Positions 1,605 through 57,632 of a stretch of 64,000 bases of DNA are shown piece after piece. The DNA is from an uncultured Bacilli bacterium. GTDB lineage: Bacteria > Bacillota_I > Bacilli_A > RF39 > UBA660. The notes below the pieces were generated by a model that saw only the letters and a list, made by a program, of their open reading frames with translations, was not told the DNA's origin and did not search any database. The number at the start of each line of letters is the position of its first letter. The first letter of the stretch is position 1. The DNA is taken from positions 262 to 64,261 of the forward strand of contig CALVOY010000014.1 in assembly GCA_944350415.1 (NCBI GenBank). The letters run 5' to 3'. Both the position numbers and the translations under genes were made by a program.

Positions 1605-1681
1605 TGGTGTTCTCGGGCAGATTTGAACTGCCGACTTTCCCTTTAGGAGAGGGATACTCTATCCAACTGAGTTACGAGAAC
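1605..1681 (-). tRNA. tRNA-Arg (anticodon CCT)
   Basis: Reverse complement folds as cloverleaf: acceptor GTTCTCG/CGAGAAC, anticodon arm TCCCT-CTCCTAA-AGGGA, T-loop TTCAAAT, encoded CCA. Confidence 0.85.
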
Positions 1682-1761: not shown

Positions 1762-1801
1762 CGATATCAATATTATTGTAAAATAAGGATAAAATTAATA
1801 T

Positions 1802-1861
1802 TTTGTTGCCAATTTGTTGCCAATAATATTCATAATTTATTCACAACAAAATCAAGTTTTA
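1802..1861. repeat. ~60-bp direct repeat (left copy) containing two tandem 11-bp units ttgttgccaat; putative integrase arm-type sites
   Basis: First 24 bp exact and ~87% overall identity with 32108-32166. Confidence 0.55.
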
Positions 1862-2037
1862 TTCATAAATCGCAAGAGGTAATCACAATTCTTTTCTAAT
1901 AACCTATTATATTTTTCTAGATACTCTCTATTAAATTCAGTATCTTTTCCTTTTACATAGATTTCTTCTAGTAATTTATTTCTTTCTATTTCAATCTTTT
2001 TTATTAATTTGCAGTACTGCTCTACTATATTATTCAT
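1852..2037 (-). CDS. hypothetical phage protein (61 aa)
   Basis: ORF track; attL-proximal small gene. Confidence 0.3.
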   Translation of the reverse strand: MNNIVEQYCKLIKKIEIERNKLLEEIYVKGKDTEFNREYLEKYNRLLEKNCDYLLRFMNKT

Positions 2038-20721: not shown

Positions 20722-20856
20722 CTCCTTTTTCTCTCTAATATTCTGTGCAAGATAACTGTGAATTATATTGCACACTTCCAATCTCACTTTTAGCTATATA
20801 AAATAAGGCTAAAACTCATATTTTTTTATCTAAATAGTTTTTGTGATTTTCGATAC
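20722..20856. repeat. ~135-bp direct repeat, copy 1 (carries TGTGCAA-N17-TTGCACA palindrome and TATAAT)
   Basis: ~85% identical to 22114-22247; begins at the RBS of the zinc-ribbon gene. Confidence 0.75.
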
Positions 20857-21219: not shown

Positions 21220-22095
21220 TCAAAATTTAATCATCTCCATTTTTTTCTTTTTTTCTTGCAAAGTAGTTCTTGTATAAATACTTGTCGTTTCCATTTTAGA
21301 ATGTCCTAAAATATCCATTAATTCTGTCATTGTAGAACCTGGTAATTGTAAATATGCTATTGCAAATAAATGCCTCCAGCCATGTGGATGAATGTGATCT
21401 AAATTTACTCTTGCTACTCCTCCGATTTTTTTCAAATGTCTCCAAATGGTTGATGGATTAATCATTCTGTTTGAATCTTGTTTTAAAATTGGATCTGGAC
21501 TTCTAAAAATAAATCCTTCTGTTATATTGTTATCTTTACAATATTTTTTTAATGATCTATGTAAATCTCCTATCAAGATAATTTGCCTTTCTTTACCTTT
21601 GCTGTAAATATCAATATATGGACCTTTTTGAATATTTTCAAATGTAAAATATTTTAATTCACTAATTCTAATTGCTGTTTGTGCAAATGTTTTAATAATC
21701 ATATACATTTCATACTCTTCGAGTTCTTTAGCTTTACGAAGCATTCTTTTATGTTCTTGATTAGACATTTGATTTTCTAACGATGATTTTTTTTGACTTC
21801 TAAAATGTTTTATTATTAAATCTTTATATCCTAGATATTTTAAAAATTTATTAAATATAACGACATATTTATTGATTGATGATACTTTAGCTTGTCCTGT
21901 CTTTAATTGTTGCTCTAAATATAACTTATATTTAATAGTAGAATCTTTTGAAAATGTAATATTATCCTCATTAATATAGTCATAGAATTTATTCAAGCAA
22001 TTTCTGTAATCAACTACTGTTTTAGTGGTCTTTTCATCAAGCCTCTCATTTTCACAAAATTCTTCTATTTTTTGTTTTAGTTCATCTTTAGTCAT
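21220..22095 (-). CDS. tyrosine site-specific recombinase (XerC/D-like, second integrase inside prophage)
   Basis: HPHGWRHLFA...LGHSKMETTSIYTRT catalytic R..HxxR..Y signature. Confidence 0.85.
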   Translation of the reverse strand: MTKDELKQKIEEFCENERLDEKTTKTVVDYRNCLNKFYDYINEDNITFSKDSTIKYKLYLEQQLKTGQAKVSSINKYVVIFNKFLKYLGYKDLIIKHFRSQKKSSLENQMSNQEHKRMLRKAKELEEYEMYMIIKTFAQTAIRISELKYFTFENIQKGPYIDIYSKGKERQIILIGDLHRSLKKYCKDNNITEGFIFRSPDPILKQDSNRMINPSTIWRHLKKIGGVARVNLDHIHPHGWRHLFAIAYLQLPGSTMTELMDILGHSKMETTSIYTRTTLQEKKKKMEMIKF

Positions 22096-22113: not shown

Positions 22114-22247
22114 CCTCTTTTCTTCTTAATATTAGGTGCAAGATAACTGCATATTATATTGCACACTTTAAATCTTAATTTTGGCTTTATAAAATAAGGT
22201 TAAAAAACAATATTTTTTGTCAAAATAGTTTTTATCATTTTTGATAC
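22114..22247. repeat. ~135-bp direct repeat, copy 2, immediately upstream of the recombinase
   Basis: Aligned by eye to 20722-20856. Confidence 0.75.
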
Positions 22248-28738: not shown

Positions 28739-29017
28739 TTACTTGGTCGTTGAACTCTCTCTTTTTTTGTCCTTTTTTTCATCATATTCCTCCTTTTTAT
28801 CTTCAAAATAATCTATAAACCAAATTGCATAAAACAATTCGATTGCATTTATCAATAATCCTAGCCATGTAAAACTCACTAGATATTCTTGAATAAATGG
28901 ATTAATAATCATATAAATCCATGTAACAATAAAATGTAATGCTGATACTATAAACAGGGATAATAGCAATAATCTAATAATGAATAAATATTTATTTTTT
29001 GATTTTAATCGTCTCAC
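28739..29017 (-). CDS. small membrane protein (2 TM)
   Basis: Hydrophobic segments; lysogeny-module neighbour. Confidence 0.4.
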   Translation of the reverse strand: MRRLKSKNKYLFIIRLLLLSLFIVSALHFIVTWIYMIINPFIQEYLVSFTWLGLLINAIELFYAIWFIDYFEDKKEEYDEKKDKKRESSTTK

Positions 29018-29256: not shown

Positions 29257-29523
29257 TTAATTAAATAAATTACTTATATTTAAAAATTGATCTGCAGAAA
29301 TTTCTGGAAATTGTTTTTTTAATTGAATTATTATTAATATAAACTCTTCTAACTTTAATGGTCTTTTATTTTGAAAAGATAAATATAACTTTTGCTGAGT
29401 CAACTTTTTTGCAAATATATCTTCGGAATTATCTTCTTTTAATTTTCTTACAAAGGATGCAATATTTATATTATTATCAGACATAAATTTTTGTATTTCT
29501 TGAGCATAGTTCATTTTTAACAC
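29257..29523 (-). CDS. first gene of the lytic (Cro-side) operon, function unknown
   Basis: Divergent from the CI-like repressor across the operator region. Confidence 0.35.
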   Translation of the reverse strand: MLKMNYAQEIQKFMSDNNINIASFVRKLKEDNSEDIFAKKLTQQKLYLSFQNKRPLKLEEFILIIIQLKKQFPEISADQFLNISNLFN

Positions 29524-29537
29524 CTCCTATTCTTTAT

Positions 29538-29624
29538 GTTAGTTTTGCTAACTTACAATTACAGTTTAAGTTATTTATACTAACTTGTCAACAGTTTTTT
29601 TATAAAAAAGTTATTTATGCTAAC
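29538..29624. promoter_or_regulatory. genetic-switch region with three 15-bp palindromic operators GTTAnTTTnnCTAAC
   Basis: gttagttttgctaac (29538-52), gttatttatactaac (29570-84), gttatttatgctaac (29610-24) between divergent regulators; TATAAT at 29661-66 and aaggaggg RBS before the repressor. Confidence 0.5.
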
Positions 29625-29681
29625 TTTTTTGTTGGTAAAATATTTAGAAAGTGGTATTATAATGATAAGGAGGGAGAAAAA

Positions 29682-30107
29682 TTGTTAAGGGATAATATCA
29701 AAACTGCAAGAATAAAAAAAGGATGGTCCCAACAAGATCTAGCTAATGAATATAATTTATTAGTTAAAAAAATTAATAAACAAAATAACTTAAATTTACA
29801 TACAATTGGTAGAACATCCATTACCCATTGGGAAACTGGCAGATATACACCAGAAGTTGAATCAATACCTGTTTTGTGTGAAATATTACAAATCAGTGCT
29901 GATAGTCTATTGGGTATTGATGAAATTATGAAAATTCAACAACATAGCCAATATGAAAAGAACATTTTACTAGATGATGGTACAAAAATTTCTATTCATA
30001 CAAATAAAAATTGGGAAGAATTAACTAAAGAAGAAAAAAAAGAAATAATGGATTCAATTATTGAAGAATCAGTAAAAATTAAAAAAGAAGAAAGTAAAAA
30101 AAACTAG
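29682..30107 (+). CDS. CI-like repressor, XRE-family HTH (TTG start)
   Basis: ARIKKGWSQQDLANEYNL...IGRTSITHWETGRYTPEVESIPVLCEILQISADSLLG. Confidence 0.8.
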   Translation: MLRDNIKTARIKKGWSQQDLANEYNLLVKKINKQNNLNLHTIGRTSITHWETGRYTPEVESIPVLCEILQISADSLLGIDEIMKIQQHSQYEKNILLDDGTKISIHTNKNWEELTKEEKKEIMDSIIEESVKIKKEESKKN

Positions 30108-30135
30108 CAGTATCGGTTTTTTACGAGGAGTTAAA

Positions 30136-30930
30136 GTGAAAAATAAATATTTAATATTATTATGCTGTATTTTTGGAGGATGGTTTGGTCTTCATTGCTT
30201 TATAGAAGGTAAAATTAAAAAAGGTATTTTATATTTATTTACAGCAGGTTTATTTTGTATTGGTTGGTTAGTTGATATAATTACTATTGCTTGTCAAAAT
30301 CAAGCAAAAACATTAGAAAATAAATCACAGAGTAAACATATTACATATAGATTTACGATTGATGAATGCGATAATAAAAAGAAAACATTGTATTCGCAAA
30401 CACGATCAAGAAAATATTATGATGATTATATTGTCTTTGATTTAGAAACTACTGGATTTAATCCAAAAGATGATGAAATTATTGAAATAGGTGCTTTAAA
30501 ATTTAAAAATGATAAATTAATTGATACATTTAATGTTTTAGTTAAACCAAAAGCTAGATTAACAAAAAATATTATTGAATTAACTGGAATTACAGAAAAT
30601 ATGCTTAAAAATTGTGATTCTATAGAGATAGCACTGCCCAAATTTATTGAATTTATTGAAAACTATCCTTTAGTAGCTCATAATAGTCCATTTGATTTAG
30701 GTTTTATAGAAGAAAATATAAAAAATTTAAATTTACCTATAATAAAAAATAAAAATATAGATACACTATATCTGTCTAGAATAAATATAAAGGATGTTCT
30801 AAATCATAAACTGGAAACACTAAAAATGCATTTTAATCTTAATTATTCTTCACATAGAGCAATTGAAGATTGTTATGTTACTAATTATATTTATCAATAT
30901 TGTAAAGACAAAAATACTGTTAAAAATTAA
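30136..30930 (+). CDS. TM2-domain membrane anchor fused to DEDDh (DnaQ/pol III epsilon-like) 3'-5' exonuclease; GTG start
   Basis: N-terminus LILLCCIFGGWFGLHCFIEGKIKKGILYLFTAGLFCIGWLVD = TM2 domain; exo motifs FDLETTG (I), AHNSPFDLGFI (II), HRAIEDCYVT (III). Confidence 0.75.
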   Translation: MKNKYLILLCCIFGGWFGLHCFIEGKIKKGILYLFTAGLFCIGWLVDIITIACQNQAKTLENKSQSKHITYRFTIDECDNKKKTLYSQTRSRKYYDDYIVFDLETTGFNPKDDEIIEIGALKFKNDKLIDTFNVLVKPKARLTKNIIELTGITENMLKNCDSIEIALPKFIEFIENYPLVAHNSPFDLGFIEENIKNLNLPIIKNKNIDTLYLSRINIKDVLNHKLETLKMHFNLNYSSHRAIEDCYVTNYIYQYCKDKNTVKN

Positions 30931-31075: not shown

Positions 31076-32107
31076 ATGGCAAAATATAAATCTAGAAAAT
31101 TACCTAATAGATACGGAACTATTAGCAAACTATCAGGTAATAGAAGAAAGCCTTATATTATTAAAGGATTTGAAGGCTATGATGATGACGGGAAAATAAT
31201 CAGGCCTATTATTGGATATGCTATAGACTATACAGAAGCTTTGGGTATATTATCTAATTATAATAAAGAACCTTATGATTTAGATTATGCAAATTTATCA
31301 ACTAAAGATTTATTTAATTTATGGTATGCTGATCTTTATAATAAAGTTAAAAGCAAAAAGCTAGGAGAAAAAAGGTATAAGGGATATAAAAGTACATTTG
31401 ATAAGTATTTTAAAACTATTCATAATCAAAAATATATATTATTAAAGACTAATGATATGCAAAAATGCTTTGATGAATGTATACATGGTTTTTCAACTAA
31501 AACTAATATGAAAATAATATTTAATGGACTTTTTGAAAAATCACAAGACCTTGAAATGCCAATCAAAAAAAATTTTGTTGAAAACTGCTATATTGGAGAA
31601 AAAGAAGATTCAGAAAAACATATTCCATTTTCTACACAAGAAATAAAAAAATTATGGAATAATATTGATAATACAGAAAATATAGATTTAATATTAATTA
31701 ATATTTATACAGGATGTAGACCAAATGAATTATTAGAACCTAATGAAATTCATTTTGAAGAAAGATATTTTATTGGTGGAAGTAAAACTGAAGCAGGTAG
31801 AAATAGAATAATTCCAATTCATGAAAAAATTGCTAATTTATTTAAAAAAAGATTTATTGATAGCGAGATTAATATCAACTATCGAAAATACTACAAATCC
31901 TTTCTTGCTGCAATGAATAAATTAGAAATGAATCACACGCCGTATGATTGCCGCCATACATTTGCAACAGAAGCCGATAATAGTAAACTAAATGACTTAT
32001 GTATCAAACTAATCATGGGGCATTCAGTACAAGATATTACAAAAGGAGTATATACTCATAAAACTCCACAACAATTAGTAGAAGAAGTGAATAAAATTGA
32101 CTTTTAA
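31076..32107 (+). CDS. int: phage tyrosine integrase
   Basis: TGCRPNEL...HTPYDCRHTFATEA...LIMGHSVQDITKGVYTH catalytic signature; adjacent to att repeats and tRNA. Confidence 0.9.
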   Translation: MAKYKSRKLPNRYGTISKLSGNRRKPYIIKGFEGYDDDGKIIRPIIGYAIDYTEALGILSNYNKEPYDLDYANLSTKDLFNLWYADLYNKVKSKKLGEKRYKGYKSTFDKYFKTIHNQKYILLKTNDMQKCFDECIHGFSTKTNMKIIFNGLFEKSQDLEMPIKKNFVENCYIGEKEDSEKHIPFSTQEIKKLWNNIDNTENIDLILINIYTGCRPNELLEPNEIHFEERYFIGGSKTEAGRNRIIPIHEKIANLFKKRFIDSEININYRKYYKSFLAAMNKLEMNHTPYDCRHTFATEADNSKLNDLCIKLIMGHSVQDITKGVYTHKTPQQLVEEVNKIDF

Positions 32108-32166
32108 TTTGTTGCCAATTTGTTGCCAATAGTATTCATAATCTAATCATAATAATATCAACTTTT
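32108..32166. repeat. ~60-bp direct repeat (right copy) with two tandem ttgttgccaat units; putative arm-type sites just after the int stop
   Basis: Matches 1802-1861. Confidence 0.55.
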
Positions 32167-32247
32167 ATAAAAATGAGTAAACTAAAAGAGTAATATTCAA
32201 TTACTCTTTTGCCATAAAACCCTTATAAAATAAAGGTAAAATCAACA

Positions 32248-32324
<77 letters not shown>

Positions 32325-33218: not shown

Positions 33219-35327
33219 CTATGGTGTACATGTCTCTATTTCTAATTGATTATTTTTTATCTTAAGCATAATGCTCCCATCTATATCTGTTCTATAAATA
33301 ATAGAATTTTTTAGAATATCTAACACTTCTTTATTAGGATGATGATATCTATTATTTTTACCAACCGATATTATCGAGTATTTAGGATGAATTTCATCTA
33401 TCAACTTATTGGATGTGCTTGTTTTGCTACCATGATGCCCTACTTTTAAAATATCTATATTATTTAAATGATATTTTTTAATTATATCTTCTTCTACTTC
33501 TATTCCTGCATCTCCTGTTAATAACATCTTAATGCCATTAAACTCAAAATAAATTACATTTGAATTATCATTTTCATTATCATATAATTTATGATTCAAA
33601 AAAGATAACTTATTATTATTTAGAATCAATTCTTTTACATTCTTATAATACGGAATCCTTTTTTTATCTAATACTTCTACAAGTTCTTGTTCTAATGGAT
33701 TCAAAGAATCATGATTCAATATGACACTTTCCACTTTAAAATGATTGACTAAATTAATACTTTCTCCCATATGATCATAGTCCCCATGGCTAAGAACTAG
33801 ATAATCTAGTTTTCGAATTCCTAAGGATTTTAGTAATGGCAATAAAGTAGTATCTGACAAAGATTTGGTTTGTCTTTCTTGCCACGGTTCCTTTGAATAG
33901 CTAATTTTACCACCTGTATCTATTAGCATGGTTTGATTATGAGAATAAATCAACAAACTGTCTCCTTGACCAACATCAATCATTAGAAAAAAATTCTGAG
34001 GAAATAAACTTAAGTAAAAATATTGATAGCATAATAAAATTCCTATTCCTAAAAAGCCAATTTTTTTTCGATAACATAACCATAAGGTTAAACAACCATA
34101 ATATAAAATAATCCAACCTATATTAGGCTTCTTCCATATTGTATTCCAAACAATCGAATTAGAAAAAAAGATAGAAAGTTCTTCCATCAACTGCGTAATC
34201 CAAAAAAATACAGAATCTAAAAAAGGAAGCAGAAATGTTAATAAAGATAAAGGAAAGACTATAAAAGATACTAAAGGTACAAATATTAAATTCAATCCAA
34301 TACTAAATAAATTTATTTGGTAAAAATAGTAAATGGAAATAGGAAAACTCACTAAAAAACTAATCATCGATATTTGAAGTAACCCTTTGGCATAAGATTG
34401 AGTATTTTTTAATTTCTTTTGCATTAAAATTAAATAAAAGCTAATCATAAAAGAATATTGAAATCCAACTTCAAATAAAGAGTAAGGATTGGTAAGTACC
34501 AATATACAAAATGTCATAATAAACAAATATAAAGTTTTGATTTGCCATTTTAAAAGCTTGTTGATACTAAGTAAACCAAATAATACCACTGCTCTACTAA
34601 TAGACGGAGTACTTCCTGATAGAAACATATAAAAACTTAAAAATAGCATTGTTAACAGAAAACTTTTTTTCTCATTCAAGTGGAATTTTTTTAGAATAAA
34701 TAAGAGAATCCCACTAAAAAGAGAAACTTGTGCTCCTGAAATAGCTAGTAAATGACTAATACCATTATTTTGGTATGATACTACAGCCTGATTAGATAAA
34801 AGACTAGTATCTCCTAAAATAAAAGCTTTTAAATAAGCTTTACTTTGATAACTATCTATATGTTTTAATATAGAATTTTTTATTTGATAAAATAAATTTT
34901 GATTGTCCTCGACTTTTTCGATTGCGTCTATTTGCATTATATAATAAATACCTTTTCTTTTTAAATACTCTTTGTAATTAAAAAGATTAGGAACAGTATT
35001 ATTTTTAGGTAAGGAAAAAGTTCCTTTTAGCTGGATTTGATCCCCTAATTGATAGTTTTCTAAAAAATTATTTTTTTCTTCTTCACTTTGAAAAAAATAA
35101 GTTCCTAAAATATTTTCTTTTCCTCCTAATTCCAGAGTTAATAGGTCTCCCTCTACTTTCATTTCTAAGATAGTACCAAAATAATAATTATCTTGGGGAT
35201 TCAGTTTACTAAAATGTGGTAAACATAAATAAAATATACTATATATAATGGTGAGGAAGAGTAATCCAATATAAAAATATTTAGAGTGTAATATTGGCTT
35301 TAATTTTTTCAAAAATACTATCTCCAA
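33219..35327 (-). CDS. comEC: DNA internalisation competence protein ComEC/Rec2
   Basis: Polytopic competence domain plus C-terminal metallo-beta-lactamase motifs LSHGDYDHMGE, VGHHGSK. Confidence 0.85.
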   Translation of the reverse strand: MEIVFLKKLKPILHSKYFYIGLLFLTIIYSIFYLCLPHFSKLNPQDNYYFGTILEMKVEGDLLTLELGGKENILGTYFFQSEEEKNNFLENYQLGDQIQLKGTFSLPKNNTVPNLFNYKEYLKRKGIYYIMQIDAIEKVEDNQNLFYQIKNSILKHIDSYQSKAYLKAFILGDTSLLSNQAVVSYQNNGISHLLAISGAQVSLFSGILLFILKKFHLNEKKSFLLTMLFLSFYMFLSGSTPSISRAVVLFGLLSINKLLKWQIKTLYLFIMTFCILVLTNPYSLFEVGFQYSFMISFYLILMQKKLKNTQSYAKGLLQISMISFLVSFPISIYYFYQINLFSIGLNLIFVPLVSFIVFPLSLLTFLLPFLDSVFFWITQLMEELSIFFSNSIVWNTIWKKPNIGWIILYYGCLTLWLCYRKKIGFLGIGILLCYQYFYLSLFPQNFFLMIDVGQGDSLLIYSHNQTMLIDTGGKISYSKEPWQERQTKSLSDTTLLPLLKSLGIRKLDYLVLSHGDYDHMGESINLVNHFKVESVILNHDSLNPLEQELVEVLDKKRIPYYKNVKELILNNNKLSFLNHKLYDNENDNSNVIYFEFNGIKMLLTGDAGIEVEEDIIKKYHLNNIDILKVGHHGSKTSTSNKLIDEIHPKYSIISVGKNNRYHHPNKEVLDILKNSIIYRTDIDGSIMLKIKNNQLEIETCTP

Positions 35328-36075
35328 TACCCTTTATATTTTTGATTTCCTCAATACTTTGAAAATTTCCGTTTTCTTCTCGATAGCGAATAATTAATTC
35401 CGCTTTGCTTTCACCAATTCCTGGTAATTGCATTAATTCTTCTTTGGTAGCAGTATTTAAAGAAATAGAATTGTTAACAGGTGTATCTCCTATTTCATCT
35501 TCATTGCTTTGATTATTAGCATCTACTAAATCCTCTTCTGTAAGACAAGCACCATTGGTCATATTAGATTGATTCAGACAAGCTATTTCTACTTCTTTTT
35601 CTTTCTCTTTGCTAGTTATGAAGTTTGCTACTTGATCTTTAGAGTATACAATAATTACCATTTCATCCTCTATTTTTTTGCTGAGATTTAGAACCGAAGT
35701 ATCCGCATTTTCTGTGCTACCACCAGCTAAGTTAATCACATCTAAAATTCGACTACCGCATTCTAACTTATATAGTCCAGGATAGTAAACCTCTCCTTTA
35801 ATATCCACCATCAATTCACATACTTCCTCTTTCTCCACATTATCAGCTTCTTCTTTATTAGATGTTACATCTTCTAATGATAAGCTCTGCTGGGAAGGAG
35901 ATTTTGAATCTTCCATAACTTGATATAAGAAGTAACCCCCTATTCCTAATAGCATGATCACTATTACTATCAATACTATCGTTACATATTTGTGTTCTAT
36001 AATGAACCATTTTACATTTTCTAATTTATCCACAAAAAATAACCTCCTATAGAGATTATTTAAAAAATTTGACAA
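35281..36075 (-). CDS. comEA: competence protein ComEA (DNA receptor, helix-hairpin-helix)
   Basis: C-terminal tandem HhH LNTATKEELMQLPGIGESKA...IKGIGDSIFEKI; N-terminal TM. Confidence 0.8.
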   Translation of the reverse strand: MSNFLNNLYRRLFFVDKLENVKWFIIEHKYVTIVLIVIVIMLLGIGGYFLYQVMEDSKSPSQQSLSLEDVTSNKEEADNVEKEEVCELMVDIKGEVYYPGLYKLECGSRILDVINLAGGSTENADTSVLNLSKKIEDEMVIIVYSKDQVANFITSKEKEKEVEIACLNQSNMTNGACLTEEDLVDANNQSNEDEIGDTPVNNSISLNTATKEELMQLPGIGESKAELIIRYREENGNFQSIEEIKNIKGIGDSIFEKIKANITL

Positions 36076-56760: not shown

Positions 56761-57099
56761 TTATTTTCTCATTACTTCTAAAAAACTATTTTGTTGCTTT
56801 CTTTCATAAAGTGAGATATCTTGTCTCCATAGACGATCGACTTCTAATTCTTCTACGGATTCTATATCTCTATTCATCACACTTGGTTGAACATTATCAT
56901 CGATGTTAGTAGATGAACTAGGTAAAATGGAAGAAATTATAACGATTGTTAATACTGAAATAGGAATTAAATAACGCTTTAACCGAACCATACTAGAATA
57001 TTTTGGTGATTCTATTCGATTTAGAATCTGTTGATAATTATCTTGCTCACTAAATTTTTGATTGAATAATTCTTTTAAATTCAATTTTATCAACTCCAC
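56761..57099 (-). CDS. putative anti-sigma factor (single TM)
   Basis: Overlaps ECF sigma stop; central TM helix. Confidence 0.45.
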   Translation of the reverse strand: MELIKLNLKELFNQKFSEQDNYQQILNRIESPKYSSMVRLKRYLIPISVLTIVIISSILPSSSTNIDDNVQPSVMNRDIESVEELEVDRLWRQDISLYERKQQNSFLEVMRK

Positions 57100-57632
57100 T
57101 TTTTTACATTTTCTTTTAGTTCTTTCAGAGTTCTATACAATATATTTTTTACCTTAGATTCACTTAAGTTTAATTCTTCAGCAATTTCTTTTATAGTGAT
57201 ATCTAACTGATAATATAAAGAAAATACTTTCATTGTAGTAGATCCTTTGCTTTTTAAGAATTCCCAAACTTTTTCTGCCATTAACTTTGAAAAAACAACA
57301 TCTTCAATTATTTCTTCTGAACAAATATTATCTAGTAATATAGTATCATGTGTTGTTTTTGCAAAAAGAGAAATAATTGGAATTCTTTTTAAAACCGTAT
57401 AGTACTTTTTTACTTTATGATTAGCAATTCCTATTAAGTAGGCTTCATTATTTTCAATCACTCTCATACTAACTAGATGTTTATAAAATTCTGTATATAC
57501 TTCTTGAATGATATCATTTACATCTTCTGTATTCGAACATTTACAAATAATATATTTCAATACTTTTGGATAAGTATCTTTATAGATTTGCTCAAACTGT
57601 TCTAATACAAGTTTTTCCTCCATTTGATTCAC
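57090..57632 (-). CDS. ECF-type RNA polymerase sigma-70 factor
   Basis: Region 2 IIQEVYTEFYKHL and region 4 ELNLSESKVKNILYRTLKELK. Confidence 0.8.
   Translation of the reverse strand: MNQMEEKLVLEQFEQIYKDTYPKVLKYIICKCSNTEDVNDIIQEVYTEFYKHLVSMRVIENNEAYLIGIANHKVKKYYTVLKRIPIISLFAKTTHDTILLDNICSEEIIEDVVFSKLMAEKVWEFLKSKGSTTMKVFSLYYQLDITIKEIAEELNLSESKVKNILYRTLKELKENVKKWS

What the first reader, a model, noticed from the sequence alone, without database searches (positions are those of the whole stretch)
30136..30930. TM2-domain membrane anchor fused to a DEDDh 3'-5' exonuclease, placed between the repressor and integrase
Directly downstream of the CI-like repressor and on the same strand (lysogen-expressed position) is a 264-aa protein. 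Its N-terminal ~55 residues are a TM2-type two-helix membrane domain. Its C-terminal ~200 residues carry all three DnaQ/epsilon-like exonuclease motifs (FDLETTG, AHNSPFDLGFI, HRAIEDCYVT). The repressor-integrase gap is where temperate phages keep superinfection-exclusion and abortive-infection genes (established for lambda rex/sieB and lactococcal sie genes). A nuclease tethered to the inner face of the membrane could degrade incoming phage DNA at the entry point. I am not aware of a described defence system with this architecture.
Basis: partly seen in the sequence, partly recalled or inferred. Interest (0 to 1): 0.72.

Follow-up and report, generated by a model that had tools for sequence, protein, structure and literature searches.

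The report
Membrane-anchored exonuclease in prophage lysogeny operon
A dormant virus in an uncultured gut bacterium carries, in the operon that stays switched on during dormancy, a DNA-trimming enzyme tied to the cell membrane; it most likely destroys foreign DNA as it enters the cell, a kind of defence shown so far only for one unrelated enzyme.

Summary
ORF 30136-30930 (+) encodes a 264-aa protein with a Pfam TM2 hairpin (res 2-49, E 7.6e-12), a disordered linker, and a complete DnaQ/PolC-type DEDDh 3'-5' exonuclease (E 8e-34). It starts 29 nt after the CI-like repressor gene, behind a three-operator switch, and ends 146 nt before the integrase of a ~30.5-kb HK97-like prophage in tRNA-Arg. 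The placement is not a one-off. All 13 distinct membrane-anchored relatives I surveyed lie in a lysogeny module, against 8 of 41 unanchored short forms. The closest unanchored relatives (180 aa, ~60% identical) are housekeeping genes. At least five unrelated hydrophobic anchors, plus BRCT and zinc-ribbon modules, are fused to such exonucleases in this slot, on two separate DEDDh lineages. Three of these anchors have a clear positive-inside signal that puts the nuclease in the cytoplasm; the TM2 hairpin itself is ambiguous. Best reading (about 0.5): a lysogen-expressed exonuclease held at the entry point that degrades 3' ends of incoming DNA. This is analogous to SNIPE (Nature 2026) but built from unrelated domains. 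No activity, topology or phage phenotype has been shown. Main rivals are blocking natural transformation and an outward-facing nuclease. I rate it a new variant of a known kind.

The parts
29257..29523 (-). cro-like small gene (88 aa), divergent from the repressor
   Evidence: ORF list; no Pfam hit; assigned from its position opposite the repressor across the operator region
29536..29626 (.). three 19-nt operator-like palindromes AAGTTAnTTnTnCTAACTT (29536-29554, 29568-29586, 29608-29626)
   Evidence: the repeat finder, direct-repeat family D1 and inverted pairs I1/I3; sequence
29632..29660 (+). promoter-like site TTGGTA-17-TATTAT with an extended -10 TG, upstream of the repressor/exonuclease operon
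   Evidence: consensus scan; a consensus match only
29682..30107 (+). CI-like HTH_3 repressor (141 aa)
   Evidence: Pfam HTH_3/HTH_19; PHROG transcriptional repressor families phrog_8/3/4
30125..30130 (+). Shine-Dalgarno GAGGAG, 5 nt before the GTG start
   Evidence: sequence
30136..30930 (+). TM2-DEDDh exonuclease gene (264 aa)
30139..30282 (+). TM2 two-helix hairpin (residues 2-49)
   Evidence: Pfam PF05154 E 7.6e-12; helices 4-23 and 27-56 in the model; invariant G15 G18 H20 F22 G30 Y33 G38 G43 W44 D47
30304..30387 (+). variable linker (residues 57-84), disordered; about half of the relatives carry a CxxC..CxxC zinc ribbon here
   Evidence: pLDDT below 50 for residues 57-78; alignment A1
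30388..30924 (+). DnaQ/PolC-type DEDDh 3'-5' exonuclease domain (residues 85-263), with catalytic D102 E104 D187 H240 D245
   Evidence: Pfam RNase_T; PDB sequence hits 2p1j, 9qpc, 8h18, 8zef; Foldseek; invariant residues
30935..30958 (.). 10-bp hairpin after the stop codon; the T-run follows it only on the minus strand, so it is not a canonical + strand terminator
   Evidence: terminator scan; sequence
31076..32107 (+). tyrosine integrase (343 aa)
   Evidence: Pfam Phage_integrase; phrog_1 E 6e-33
32105..32168 (.). arm-type repeat (TTGTTGCCAAT x2), 88% identical to 1799-1862 at the other end of the prophage
   Evidence: the repeat finder D2/D3
32248..32324 (-). tRNA-Arg(CCT) holding the attR core 32286-32310; the attL core is at 1737-1761
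   Evidence: ARAGORN; exact 25-nt repeat with 0 expected by chance

Best explanation
This is a lysogen-expressed exonuclease positioned at the point where foreign DNA enters the cell. It is transcribed with the CI-like repressor from the maintenance promoter, so it is made in every lysogenic cell. The TM2 hairpin inserts in the cytoplasmic membrane with both ends inside. It holds a catalytically complete DnaQ/PolC-type 3'-5' DNA exonuclease on a flexible linker of about 30 residues at the inner face of the membrane. There the enzyme meets DNA that is crossing the membrane, chiefly the leading end of a superinfecting phage genome, and degrades its 3' end. For cos phages with 3' single-stranded cohesive ends, as expected for HNH-terminase phages like the resident one, removing that overhang would prevent circularisation and leave a linear genome open to host nucleases. 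Tethering serves to target the enzyme, not to prevent autoimmunity, because a 60%-identical free paralogue is a housekeeping gene. The integrated prophage has no free DNA ends, and its replicating DNA after induction should lie beyond the tethered enzyme's reach. Shown here: the domain architecture, the intact active site, the operon position, and the recurrence and convergence of that position. Inferred: expression in lysogens, N-in/C-in topology, DNA as the substrate, phage DNA as the target, and trimming of cos ends.
For: (1) Architecture and intact DEDDh site. (2) Operon with the repressor: a 29-nt gap, a strong RBS and no + strand terminator between the genes, behind a three-operator switch. 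In relatives the gene overlaps or abuts the upstream repressor or ImmA gene, at -10, -3, 0 or 18 nt. (3) Position is conserved in distinct prophages that differ in repressor (HTH_3, S24 or HTH+ImmA) and in recombinase (tyrosine or serine). (4) In the survey of fetched loci, 13/13 distinct anchored short forms lie in a lysogeny module against 8/41 unanchored short forms (Fisher p = 1.8e-7). The 180-aa and PolC forms never do, and the 180-aa form sits in a GTPase...rimP-nusA-infB neighbourhood. (5) At least five unrelated hydrophobic anchors are fused to the same kind of exonuclease in the same slot: TM2; the DUF4234-like 'KKRNIWFHIIVGY' helix; the P0109 type; the L111 type; and the Staphylococcus phage O1-69 type. 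A further two-helix anchor on P0025 was seen in sequence only. In a rough NJ tree the anchors are interspersed within one clade, and the L111 type lies on a separate DEDDh lineage near PolC. This points to selection for membrane tethering as such. (6) Topology: the L111 type has an uncharged N-tail, one TM helix, then DRSRKKKGK. The P0109 type has an acidic N-tail, a TM segment, then NNYKRNKVK. P0025 reads MKKVFKK-TM-TEDLFG-TM followed by a basic flank. All three place the exonuclease inside. TM2-anchored relatives carry zinc ribbons, BRCT or NUMOD-like modules on the same side as the exonuclease. (7) Precedents: SNIPE, a membrane-anchored nuclease, cleaves lambda DNA during injection, and its homologues pair a conserved nuclease with variable N-terminal anchors (PMC13190303). 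[quoted passage not shown] (8) The resident phage has HNH-TerS-TerL, the arrangement associated with cos packaging (own knowledge: HK97 gp74, staphylococcal cos phages).
Against: There is no functional data of any kind. Charge counting on the TM2 hairpin is ambiguous, because the loop EGKIKKG is as basic as the tails. Eukaryotic TM2D proteins are thought to have the loop in the cytosol and both termini outside (own knowledge), which would put the exonuclease outside the cell. DnaQ-type exonucleases prefer single-stranded or frayed 3' ends and may not process duplex phage DNA, so an effect may depend on the end structure of the incoming phage. Soluble DEDDh forms (exo-BRCT and others) occupy the same slot, so membrane tethering is not the only solution and the shared function could be something other than attack at the entry point. 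The survey is biased: the loci were gathered by homology, viral contigs are enriched for prophages, and the neighbour detectors were built from some of the same loci. The strongly conserved TM2 signature (H20 and D47 within the membrane) suggests the hairpin does more than anchor.
Confidence: 0.5

Rival explanations
1. It blocks natural transformation. The tethered 3'-5' exonuclease degrades single-stranded DNA as it emerges from the ComEC channel, whose leading end is the 3' end (own knowledge). This protects the prophage from being deleted by recombination with incoming DNA.
For: The same anatomy fits: a membrane-tethered, ssDNA-preferring 3'-5' exonuclease expressed in lysogens. The host has comEC and comEA about 1 kb from attR. 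Mobile elements are known to encode nucleases that degrade transforming DNA (IdeA, SxnA, Dns), and prophages commonly interfere with competence (PMC12378983).
Against: The known examples are periplasmic or secreted endonucleases, not cytoplasmic-face exonucleases. The proximity of the com genes follows from the tRNA integration site and is not seen in the other loci. Competence of these uncultured hosts is unknown. This rival is not exclusive with phage exclusion.
Confidence: 0.15
2. It is an outward-facing surface nuclease. The TM2 hairpin has its loop in the cytoplasm and both termini outside, so the exonuclease is displayed on the cell surface. There it degrades extracellular DNA, either for nucleotide scavenging or to destroy DNA before uptake, as a lysogenic-conversion trait.
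For: The TM2 loop is Lys-rich. Eukaryotic TM2D topology has the loop in the cytosol (own knowledge). Membrane-anchored external nucleases exist in Firmicutes, for example EndA.
Against: Other anchors on the same exonuclease clade have a clear positive-inside signal for C-in. The soluble 180-aa, zinc-ribbon-only and coiled-coil-only relatives have no signal peptide. Partner modules on the same side are intracellular types such as BRCT, NUMOD and zinc ribbon. All structural neighbours are intracellular enzymes.
Confidence: 0.08
3. It plays a role in the prophage's own biology: a proofreading or replication accessory subunit (as the PHROG names suggest), or a modulator of induction that removes the 3' ssDNA that activates RecA.
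For: PHROG annotations read 'DNA polymerase exonuclease subunit'. The nearest families are PolC/DnaQ. The gene sits next to S24 or ImmA-type switches in relatives.
Against: No ORF in the prophage's early or replication region is long enough to encode a DNA polymerase, and the ORFs tested there are not polymerases. The gene lies in the lysogeny operon on the strand opposite to the replication genes. A membrane anchor makes little sense for either role. All NCBIfam epsilon/PolC equivalog scores are far below their cut-offs.
Confidence: 0.12
4. It is an abortive-infection or toxin module. The TM2 hairpin is the effector or sensor, forming a pore or responding to membrane perturbation on phage entry, and the nuclease degrades host or phage nucleic acid once released or activated.
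For: The TM2 signature, including H20 and D47 within the membrane, is conserved far more than a passive anchor needs. Neighbouring cargo in relatives includes PemK-like and Abi_2 genes.
Against: The TM2 hairpin is freely replaced by unrelated anchors. No partner or antitoxin gene is conserved next to it. A 60%-identical free enzyme is a housekeeping gene, so the nuclease is not intrinsically toxic.
Confidence: 0.07

Closest known systems
SNIPE (TM helix - DUF4041 - GIY-YIG nuclease; Saxton et al., Nature 2026, PMC13190303)
   Same: Both have an N-terminal membrane anchor with the nuclease predicted on the cytoplasmic side. In both families the nuclease is conserved while the N-terminal anchors are highly variable. 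The proposed action, on DNA as it enters, is the same.
   Different: The domains are unrelated. SNIPE is a GIY-YIG endonuclease and needs DUF4041 for DNA and tape-measure binding. This protein is a DEDDh 3'-5' exonuclease with only a disordered linker or a zinc ribbon. SNIPE without its TM is toxic, whereas here a free paralogue is a housekeeping gene. SNIPE is experimentally proven; this protein is not.
Lactococcal/streptococcal prophage Sie proteins (Sie2009 and relatives)
   Same: Both are encoded in the lysogeny module between the repressor and integrase genes of Firmicute siphophages, and both are membrane-associated through a hydrophobic N-terminus (PMC7693887).
   Different: Sie proteins are small and have no enzymatic domain; they block DNA injection. 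This protein carries a full exonuclease.
Housekeeping 180-aa DnaQ-like exonuclease of uncultured gut Bacilli, and the PolC proofreading domain
   Same: The exonuclease domain is 57-65% identical to the 180-aa proteins and 33-47% identical to PolC exonuclease domains, with the same fold and catalytic residues.
   Different: Those proteins have no membrane anchor and lie in chromosomal housekeeping contexts. All NCBIfam equivalog scores for this protein fall below their cut-offs.
TONDO / ISG20-like DEDDh exonucleases (bioRxiv 2026, PMC13344964)
   Same: Both are DEDDh exonucleases with variable auxiliary domains, encoded in prophages and other mobile elements. TONDO shows experimentally that end-trimming of a viral genome can be a defence mechanism.
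   Different: TONDOs are ISG20-like RNases that act on the 3' UTRs of RNA phages. The structural neighbours of this protein are DNA exonucleases. No membrane anchor came up in the passages I read.
Cas2-DEDDh / CRISPR-associated DnaQ domains
   Same: The best PADLOC hit (DEDDh, 3.5e-38) and the best structural hit (S. thermophilus DnaQ domain 8h18/8h2f) both belong here. These enzymes trim 3' overhangs of DNA.
   Different: They are fused to Cas2 and act in spacer acquisition. There is no CRISPR context here.
TREX1 (own knowledge)
   Same: It is a DEDDh 3'-5' DNA exonuclease tethered to a membrane by a TM segment with its catalytic domain in the cytosol, and it clears foreign or misplaced DNA.
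   Different: It is eukaryotic, anchored to the ER by a C-terminal tail, and only distantly related (a TREX1 homologue ranks 20th).
PADLOC candidate PDC-S48
   Same: The N-terminal DEDDh domain is similar (E 5e-19).
   Different: Only positions ~5-167 of the 411/512-position profiles match. The rest of PDC-S48 is absent, and PDC-S48 has no TM2.

Membership tests
DEDDh (DnaQ-like, RNase_T PF00929) 3'-5' exonuclease superfamily | Exo I (DxE), Exo II (D) and Exo III (Hx4D) motifs, all present | tested here: met
   D102/E104, D187 and H240/D245 are invariant in 27 sequences; PF00929 E 8.2e-34 over the full profile 1-164
DEDDh (DnaQ-like, RNase_T PF00929) 3'-5' exonuclease superfamily | RNase H-like exonuclease fold | tested here: met
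   The AF2 domain has pLDDT above 90; Foldseek TM-score 0.88 and rmsd 1.8 A to 8h2f, with PolC, DinG and epsilon following
DEDDh (DnaQ-like, RNase_T PF00929) 3'-5' exonuclease superfamily | Mg-dependent 3'-5' exonuclease activity | not testable with these tools
   Needs a biochemical assay
TM2 domain (PF05154) | HMM match above the gathering threshold | tested here: met
   45.7 bits against 27.9, profile positions 3-51 of 51
TM2 domain (PF05154) | Two transmembrane helices joined by a short loop | tested here: met
   Kyte-Doolittle peaks at 7-23 and 37-53; model helices 4-23 and 27-56. Membrane insertion and orientation were not tested
SNIPE | GIY-YIG nuclease domain | tested here: not met
   Pfam finds only RNase_T, RNase_H_2 and TM2
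SNIPE | DUF4041 domain | tested here: not met
   No Pfam hit; the linker is disordered or holds a zinc ribbon
SNIPE | N-terminal membrane anchor with the nuclease in the cytoplasm | tested here: inconclusive
   An anchor is present. C-in is supported by other anchors and by partner domains, but the TM2 hairpin is ambiguous by charge
SNIPE | Cleaves phage DNA during injection | not testable with these tools
   Needs labelled-phage injection assays
DNA polymerase III epsilon / PolC proofreading subunit | Score above the NCBIfam equivalog cut-off | tested here: not met
   NF005289 scores 196.8 against 335; PolC NF001688 scores 171 against 873; dnaQ_proteo scores 77 against 222.7. Only the domain-level model TIGR00573 passes, at 100.7 against 71.5
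DNA polymerase III epsilon / PolC proofreading subunit | Association with a polymerase gene or a replication module | tested here: not met
   The gene is in the lysogeny operon, and no ORF in the prophage's early region is long enough to encode a polymerase. Anchored relatives are never found in replication contexts
Prophage superinfection-exclusion (Sie) genes of Firmicute siphophages | Encoded between the repressor and integrase genes, on the lysogen-expressed strand | tested here: met
Prophage superinfection-exclusion (Sie) genes of Firmicute siphophages | Membrane-associated protein | tested here: met
   A predicted TM2 hairpin; prediction only
Prophage superinfection-exclusion (Sie) genes of Firmicute siphophages | Protects the lysogen against heterologous phages at the DNA-entry step | not testable with these tools
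   Needs plaque and injection assays
PADLOC PDC-S48 candidate | Full-length match to the 411/512-position profiles | tested here: not met
   Only profile positions 5-167 are matched
TONDO / ISG20-like RNA exonucleases | ISG20-like clade of DEDDh enzymes with RNA 3'-end trimming | tested here: inconclusive
   The top structural neighbours are DNA exonucleases, and ERI-type RNases rank 28th or lower. No TONDO sequences were available to compare

The most novel reading that the evidence does not exclude
DnaQ/PolC-type exonucleases captured from host housekeeping genes form a widespread class of prophage 'entry-point' immunity genes that has arisen convergently. They would disarm incoming linear DNA by trimming its 3' ends, for example the 3' cohesive ends of cos phages, so that the genome cannot circularise. 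Interchangeable targeting modules would deliver the enzyme either to the site of DNA entry (TM2 and other membrane anchors) or to DNA ends (BRCT). This would be an exonuclease-based, sequence-independent way of telling self from non-self, distinct from SNIPE.
Probability: 0.25. Interest if true: 0.8.

Novelty: new variant of a known kind. Interest (0 to 1): 0.62.

Why it matters
If the protein works as proposed, spatial self/non-self discrimination (attack whatever DNA is crossing the membrane) would extend from one Gram-negative endonuclease family, SNIPE, to a second, unrelated enzyme class in Gram-positive prophages. It would also show that the strategy evolved repeatedly by bolting different anchors onto a housekeeping exonuclease. 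It would give a concrete function to the bacterial TM2 domain, which has none assigned. It would explain a recurrent unannotated gene in gut-Firmicute prophages, which databases label 'DNA polymerase' or 'DNA polymerase III epsilon' when they label it at all. An exonuclease mechanism also predicts that sensitivity depends on the end structure of the phage genome (cos 3' overhang versus pac or protected ends). That prediction is testable and would be a new determinant of phage host range among lysogens.

Tried and rejected
(1) I suspected the window's own 180-aa ORF at 57090-57632 was the host housekeeping exonuclease. It is a sigma-70 family protein with no similarity to the exonuclease. (2) Simple Kyte-Doolittle and K/R counting to settle the TM2 topology gave ambiguous, noisy results. 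No dedicated topology predictor was available. (3) Literature searches for TM2 + prophage + exonuclease, superinfection exclusion + DnaQ, DEDDh + anti-phage, and TM2 domain + phage found no description of this architecture. Most 'TM2 domain' hits refer to the second TM segment of unrelated proteins. (4) The diDNases of Gram-positive genomic islands (PMC11706625) were considered and rejected. They are NrnC-like DEDDy dinucleotidases without anchors. (5) I searched for a + strand intrinsic terminator between the repressor and the exonuclease, or after the exonuclease. None was found; the only hairpin has its T-run on the minus strand. (6) Public names for the protein: none in any source. (7) Among deposited phage genomes, no TM2-exonuclease was found. 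There are only soluble relatives in C. difficile and C. tetani phages and one differently anchored form in Staphylococcus phage O1-69, which has no close relative among deposited phages. (8) I tested whether P0181 (TM2-exo-BRCT) represents a large family. It is a rare TM2 fusion onto an otherwise soluble exo-BRCT family.
Full report
**1. The observation**

The ORF reported at 30136-30930 (+) is real: 264 aa, a GTG start, and a GAGGAG Shine-Dalgarno 5 nt upstream.
- Pfam finds a TM2 domain (PF05154) at residues 2-49 (E 7.6e-12, 45.7 bits against a gathering score of 27.9). It also finds a full-length RNase_T/DEDDh exonuclease domain (PF00929) at residues 99-253 (E 8.2e-34).
- In an alignment of 27 family members, the five catalytic residues D102, E104, D187, H240 and D245 are invariant. 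So is the TM2 signature G15 G18 H20 F22 G30 Y33 G38 G43 W44 D47.
- An AlphaFold2 model built on that alignment (mean pLDDT 86) shows a helical hairpin at residues 4-56, a disordered linker at 57-78 (pLDDT below 50), and a confident exonuclease fold at 85-263.
- By sequence and by fold, the nearest solved structures are DNA 3'-5' exonucleases. They are the S. thermophilus DnaQ domain (TM-score 0.88, rmsd 1.8 A), PolC proofreading domains, the S. aureus DinG exonuclease, E. coli epsilon, ExoX and Cas2-DEDDh.

**2. Local context**

The gene belongs to a ~30.5-kb prophage.
- The prophage is bounded by an exact 25-nt att core at 1737-1761 and 32286-32310. The second copy lies inside tRNA-Arg(CCT) at 32248-32324. 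Arm-type repeats sit near both ends.
- It is a complete HK97-like siphovirus with HNH endonuclease, TerS, TerL, portal, protease, major head protein and tape measure.
- Upstream of the finding is a CI-like HTH_3 repressor at 29682-30107 (+). It faces a divergent cro-like gene across a 158-bp region that holds three 19-nt palindromic operator-like sites and divergent promoter-like sites.
- The exonuclease gene starts 29 nt after the repressor stop codon, with no + strand terminator between them. The integrase gene (31076-32107, +) follows 146 nt downstream.
- Co-transcription with the repressor, and so expression in lysogens, is inferred from this layout. It has not been measured.

**3. Relatives and their contexts**

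The homology search returned about 40 clusters with the same TM2 + exonuclease architecture at 43-76% identity. About half of them carry a CxxC..CxxC zinc ribbon in the linker. It also returned a large group of 180-aa standalone exonucleases about 60% identical to the C-terminal domain.
- Context look-ups for four divergent TM2-exonuclease proteins (P0008, P0007, P0013, P0020) all show the same placement: same strand, downstream of the repressor or its ImmA partner, upstream of the integrase. The repressors differ (HTH_3, LexA-like S24, HTH+M78). Other cargo is sometimes interposed, such as a PemK-like or a Bro-N gene.
- The 180-aa form is chromosomal, lying between a GTPase gene and rimP-nusA-infB.
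- A profile search of 1.84 billion representatives found 36 end-to-end TM2+exonuclease matches among the best 150 hits alone. Many of them have extra C-terminal modules such as BRCT or a NUMOD-like motif.

**4. Anchor diversity and convergence**

Several close relatives of the exonuclease have no TM2. Instead they carry unrelated hydrophobic N-termini:
- a 'KKRNIWFHIIVGY' helix that weakly resembles DUF4234 (P0024, P0079, P0087);
- a two-helix anchor plus coiled coil (P0025);
- a long hydrophobic segment (P0109, P0113).

Others have soluble zinc-ribbon or coiled-coil extensions. P0087 and P0109 also sit between a repressor and a recombinase, serine and tyrosine type respectively.

A scripted survey covered 127 fetched loci, using ORF calling and phmmer with repressor and recombinase queries.
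- All 13 distinct short exonucleases with a hydrophobic N-terminal extension lie in a lysogeny module, against 8 of 41 without one (Fisher p = 1.8e-7).
- No 180-aa or PolC form lies in a lysogeny module.
- The anchored set includes a distant group from viral contigs (L111, L112, L116; 35-39% identical). It has a single TM helix and sits directly upstream of a serine recombinase.
- In a rough neighbour-joining tree this group lies on a different DEDDh lineage, near PolC. The other anchors are interspersed within one prophage clade that is sister to the housekeeping clade.
- A TM2-exo-BRCT protein (P0181) lies between ImmA and a serine recombinase.
- A deposited genome, Staphylococcus phage O1-69, has S24 repressor, then a 265-aa protein with a hydrophobic N-terminus and a DEDDh exonuclease, then a tyrosine integrase.

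The survey is biased by how the loci were collected, and the tree has no support values. Even so, the pattern is consistent: membrane tethering of a DnaQ-type exonuclease in the lysogeny module has arisen more than once.

**5. Topology**

For the TM2 hairpin, K/R counting is ambiguous because the loop EGKIKKG is as basic as the tails. Eukaryotic TM2D proteins are believed to have the loop in the cytosol (own knowledge). Four lines of indirect evidence favour a cytoplasmic nuclease.
- Three other anchors follow the positive-inside rule clearly. The L111 type has an uncharged N-tail, a TM helix, then DRSRKKKGK. The P0109 type has an acidic N-tail, a TM segment, then NNYKRNKVK. P0025 reads MKKVFKK-TM-TEDLFG-TM followed by a basic flank.
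- The soluble relatives lack signal peptides.
- Zinc ribbons, BRCT and NUMOD-like modules lie on the same side of the membrane as the exonuclease in TM2-anchored proteins.
- All structural neighbours are intracellular enzymes.

This remains an inference until the topology is mapped.

**6. Mechanism**

The best-supported reading is a lysogen-expressed exonuclease that sits at the inner face of the membrane and attacks 3' ends of DNA as it enters. Because a 60%-identical free paralogue is a housekeeping gene, the anchor is better seen as a targeting device than as protection against autoimmunity.

The DNA ends that occur at the membrane belong to incoming phage genomes, or to transforming or conjugative DNA. 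DnaQ-type enzymes prefer single-stranded 3' ends. The resident phage has the HNH-terminase arrangement typical of cos phages with 3' overhangs (own knowledge for the end structure). A specific, testable version of the model is therefore that the enzyme trims the 3' cohesive end and so prevents circularisation.

Published precedents support parts of this reading.
- SNIPE is a membrane-anchored GIY-YIG nuclease that cleaves lambda DNA during injection. Its homologues also pair a conserved nuclease with variable anchors (PMC13190303).
- Lactococcal Sie proteins are membrane-associated and are encoded in this same slot (PMC7693887).
- TONDO/ISG20-like exonucleases show that trimming the end of a viral genome can be a defence (PMC13344964).

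I put this reading at about 0.5.

**7. Rivals**

- Blocking natural transformation (0.15). Mobile elements do encode nucleases that degrade transforming DNA (PMC12378983), and comEC/comEA lie beside the prophage.
- A role in the prophage's own replication or induction (0.12). This is weakened by the absence of any polymerase-sized ORF in the prophage's early region, by the strand and operon position, and by the anchor.
- An outward-facing surface nuclease (0.08).
- An abortive-infection or toxin module in which TM2 is the effector (0.07).

Soluble DEDDh forms in the same slot (exo-BRCT) show that tethering is not the only solution. The shared function may be 'attack incoming DNA ends' in general, with BRCT as an alternative way of finding ends. 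That last point is speculation.

**8. Comparison with known systems, and novelty**

The protein is a member of the DEDDh superfamily and of the Pfam TM2 family.
- It is not a SNIPE homologue, because it has no GIY-YIG and no DUF4041.
- It is not a Pol III epsilon or PolC equivalog, because all the equivalog scores fall below their cut-offs.
- It is not PDC-S48, because only that profile's exonuclease domain matches.
- No public source names it, and no paper in the searchable library describes the architecture.

In concept it is a new variant of a known kind: a membrane-anchored nuclease and prophage superinfection-exclusion gene built from different parts. Its function remains to be shown.

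Noticed in passing
window 21220-22095 (-), with repeats at 20727-20856 and 22118-22247: A second integrase-family gene (291 aa, phrog_1 E 3e-27) lies inside the prophage between the early and late genes, flanked by 130-nt direct repeats (81% identical). Related prophages carry similar 219-280-aa PF00589 genes at the equivalent place (L003, L010, L126). Its role is unknown; it could be a regulator, part of an invertible or excisable cassette, or a Xer-like resolvase.
   Followed up: partly
window 1605-1681, 1737-1761, 32248-32324: There are two tRNA-Arg(CCT) genes with different sequences, one at each end of the prophage. The att core is an exact 25-nt repeat that covers the D-arm-to-anticodon part of the right-hand tRNA, so integration is within the tRNA body and the phage supplies the 3' part.
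   Followed up: partly
window 1799-1862 and 32105-32168: 64-nt repeats (88% identical) just inside both prophage ends each contain TTGTTGCCAAT twice. These are probably arm-type integrase binding sites.
   Followed up: no
window 29536-29626: Three 19-nt palindromic operator-like sites (AAGTTAnTTnTnCTAACTT), spaced 32 and 40 nt apart, lie between the cro-like and repressor genes. This looks like a textbook three-operator switch in an uncultured gut Bacilli phage.
   Followed up: partly
window 33219-36075 (-): The competence genes comEC (702 aa) and comEA (264 aa) lie about 1 kb beyond attR. This is relevant to the anti-transformation rival but is probably a coincidence of the tRNA integration site.
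   Followed up: no
L113, L132/L133 (P0296), L114/L115, L117: Soluble DEDDh exonucleases with C-terminal BRCT or unknown domains (317-489 aa) occupy the same repressor-integrase slot in other prophages. DnaQ-type exonucleases seem to be general cargo of this slot.
   Followed up: partly
L136 3959-4756 (Staphylococcus phage O1-69, ON113345.1): A 265-aa protein with a different hydrophobic N-terminus and a DEDDh exonuclease lies between an S24 CI-like repressor and a tyrosine integrase. It has no close relative among deposited phages and the record is unannotated. It may be a tractable system for experiments.
   Followed up: partly
L135 3773-4915 (Clostridium phage phiCT9441A gp78); L134 3839-4561 (phiCD506): Cultured clostridial phages carry soluble relatives annotated as 'DNA polymerase' or 'Pol III epsilon'. 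One sits after the lysis genes, directly next to attR. The other is in a ParA-type plasmid-prophage near a DEAD-box helicase. Neither has a membrane anchor.
   Followed up: partly
P0123, P0138 and phiCT9441A gp78 (L135): By eye, these proteins share a C-terminal region of about 130 aa with no Pfam match ('..VKDxLxKNNxDTxxL..'), which follows the exonuclease in both TM2-anchored and soluble proteins.
   Followed up: no
L003 8911-9567; L010 6875-7711; L126 8700-9665: Relatives carry other cargo next to the exonuclease: a PemK-like 218-aa protein, a Bro-N protein, and an Abi_2 gene beyond the serine recombinase. This fits the slot being a hotspot for defence and accessory genes.
   Followed up: no
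window 28739-29017 (-): A 92-aa ORF with at least two strongly hydrophobic segments lies in the early lytic operon. It has no Pfam hit.
   Followed up: no
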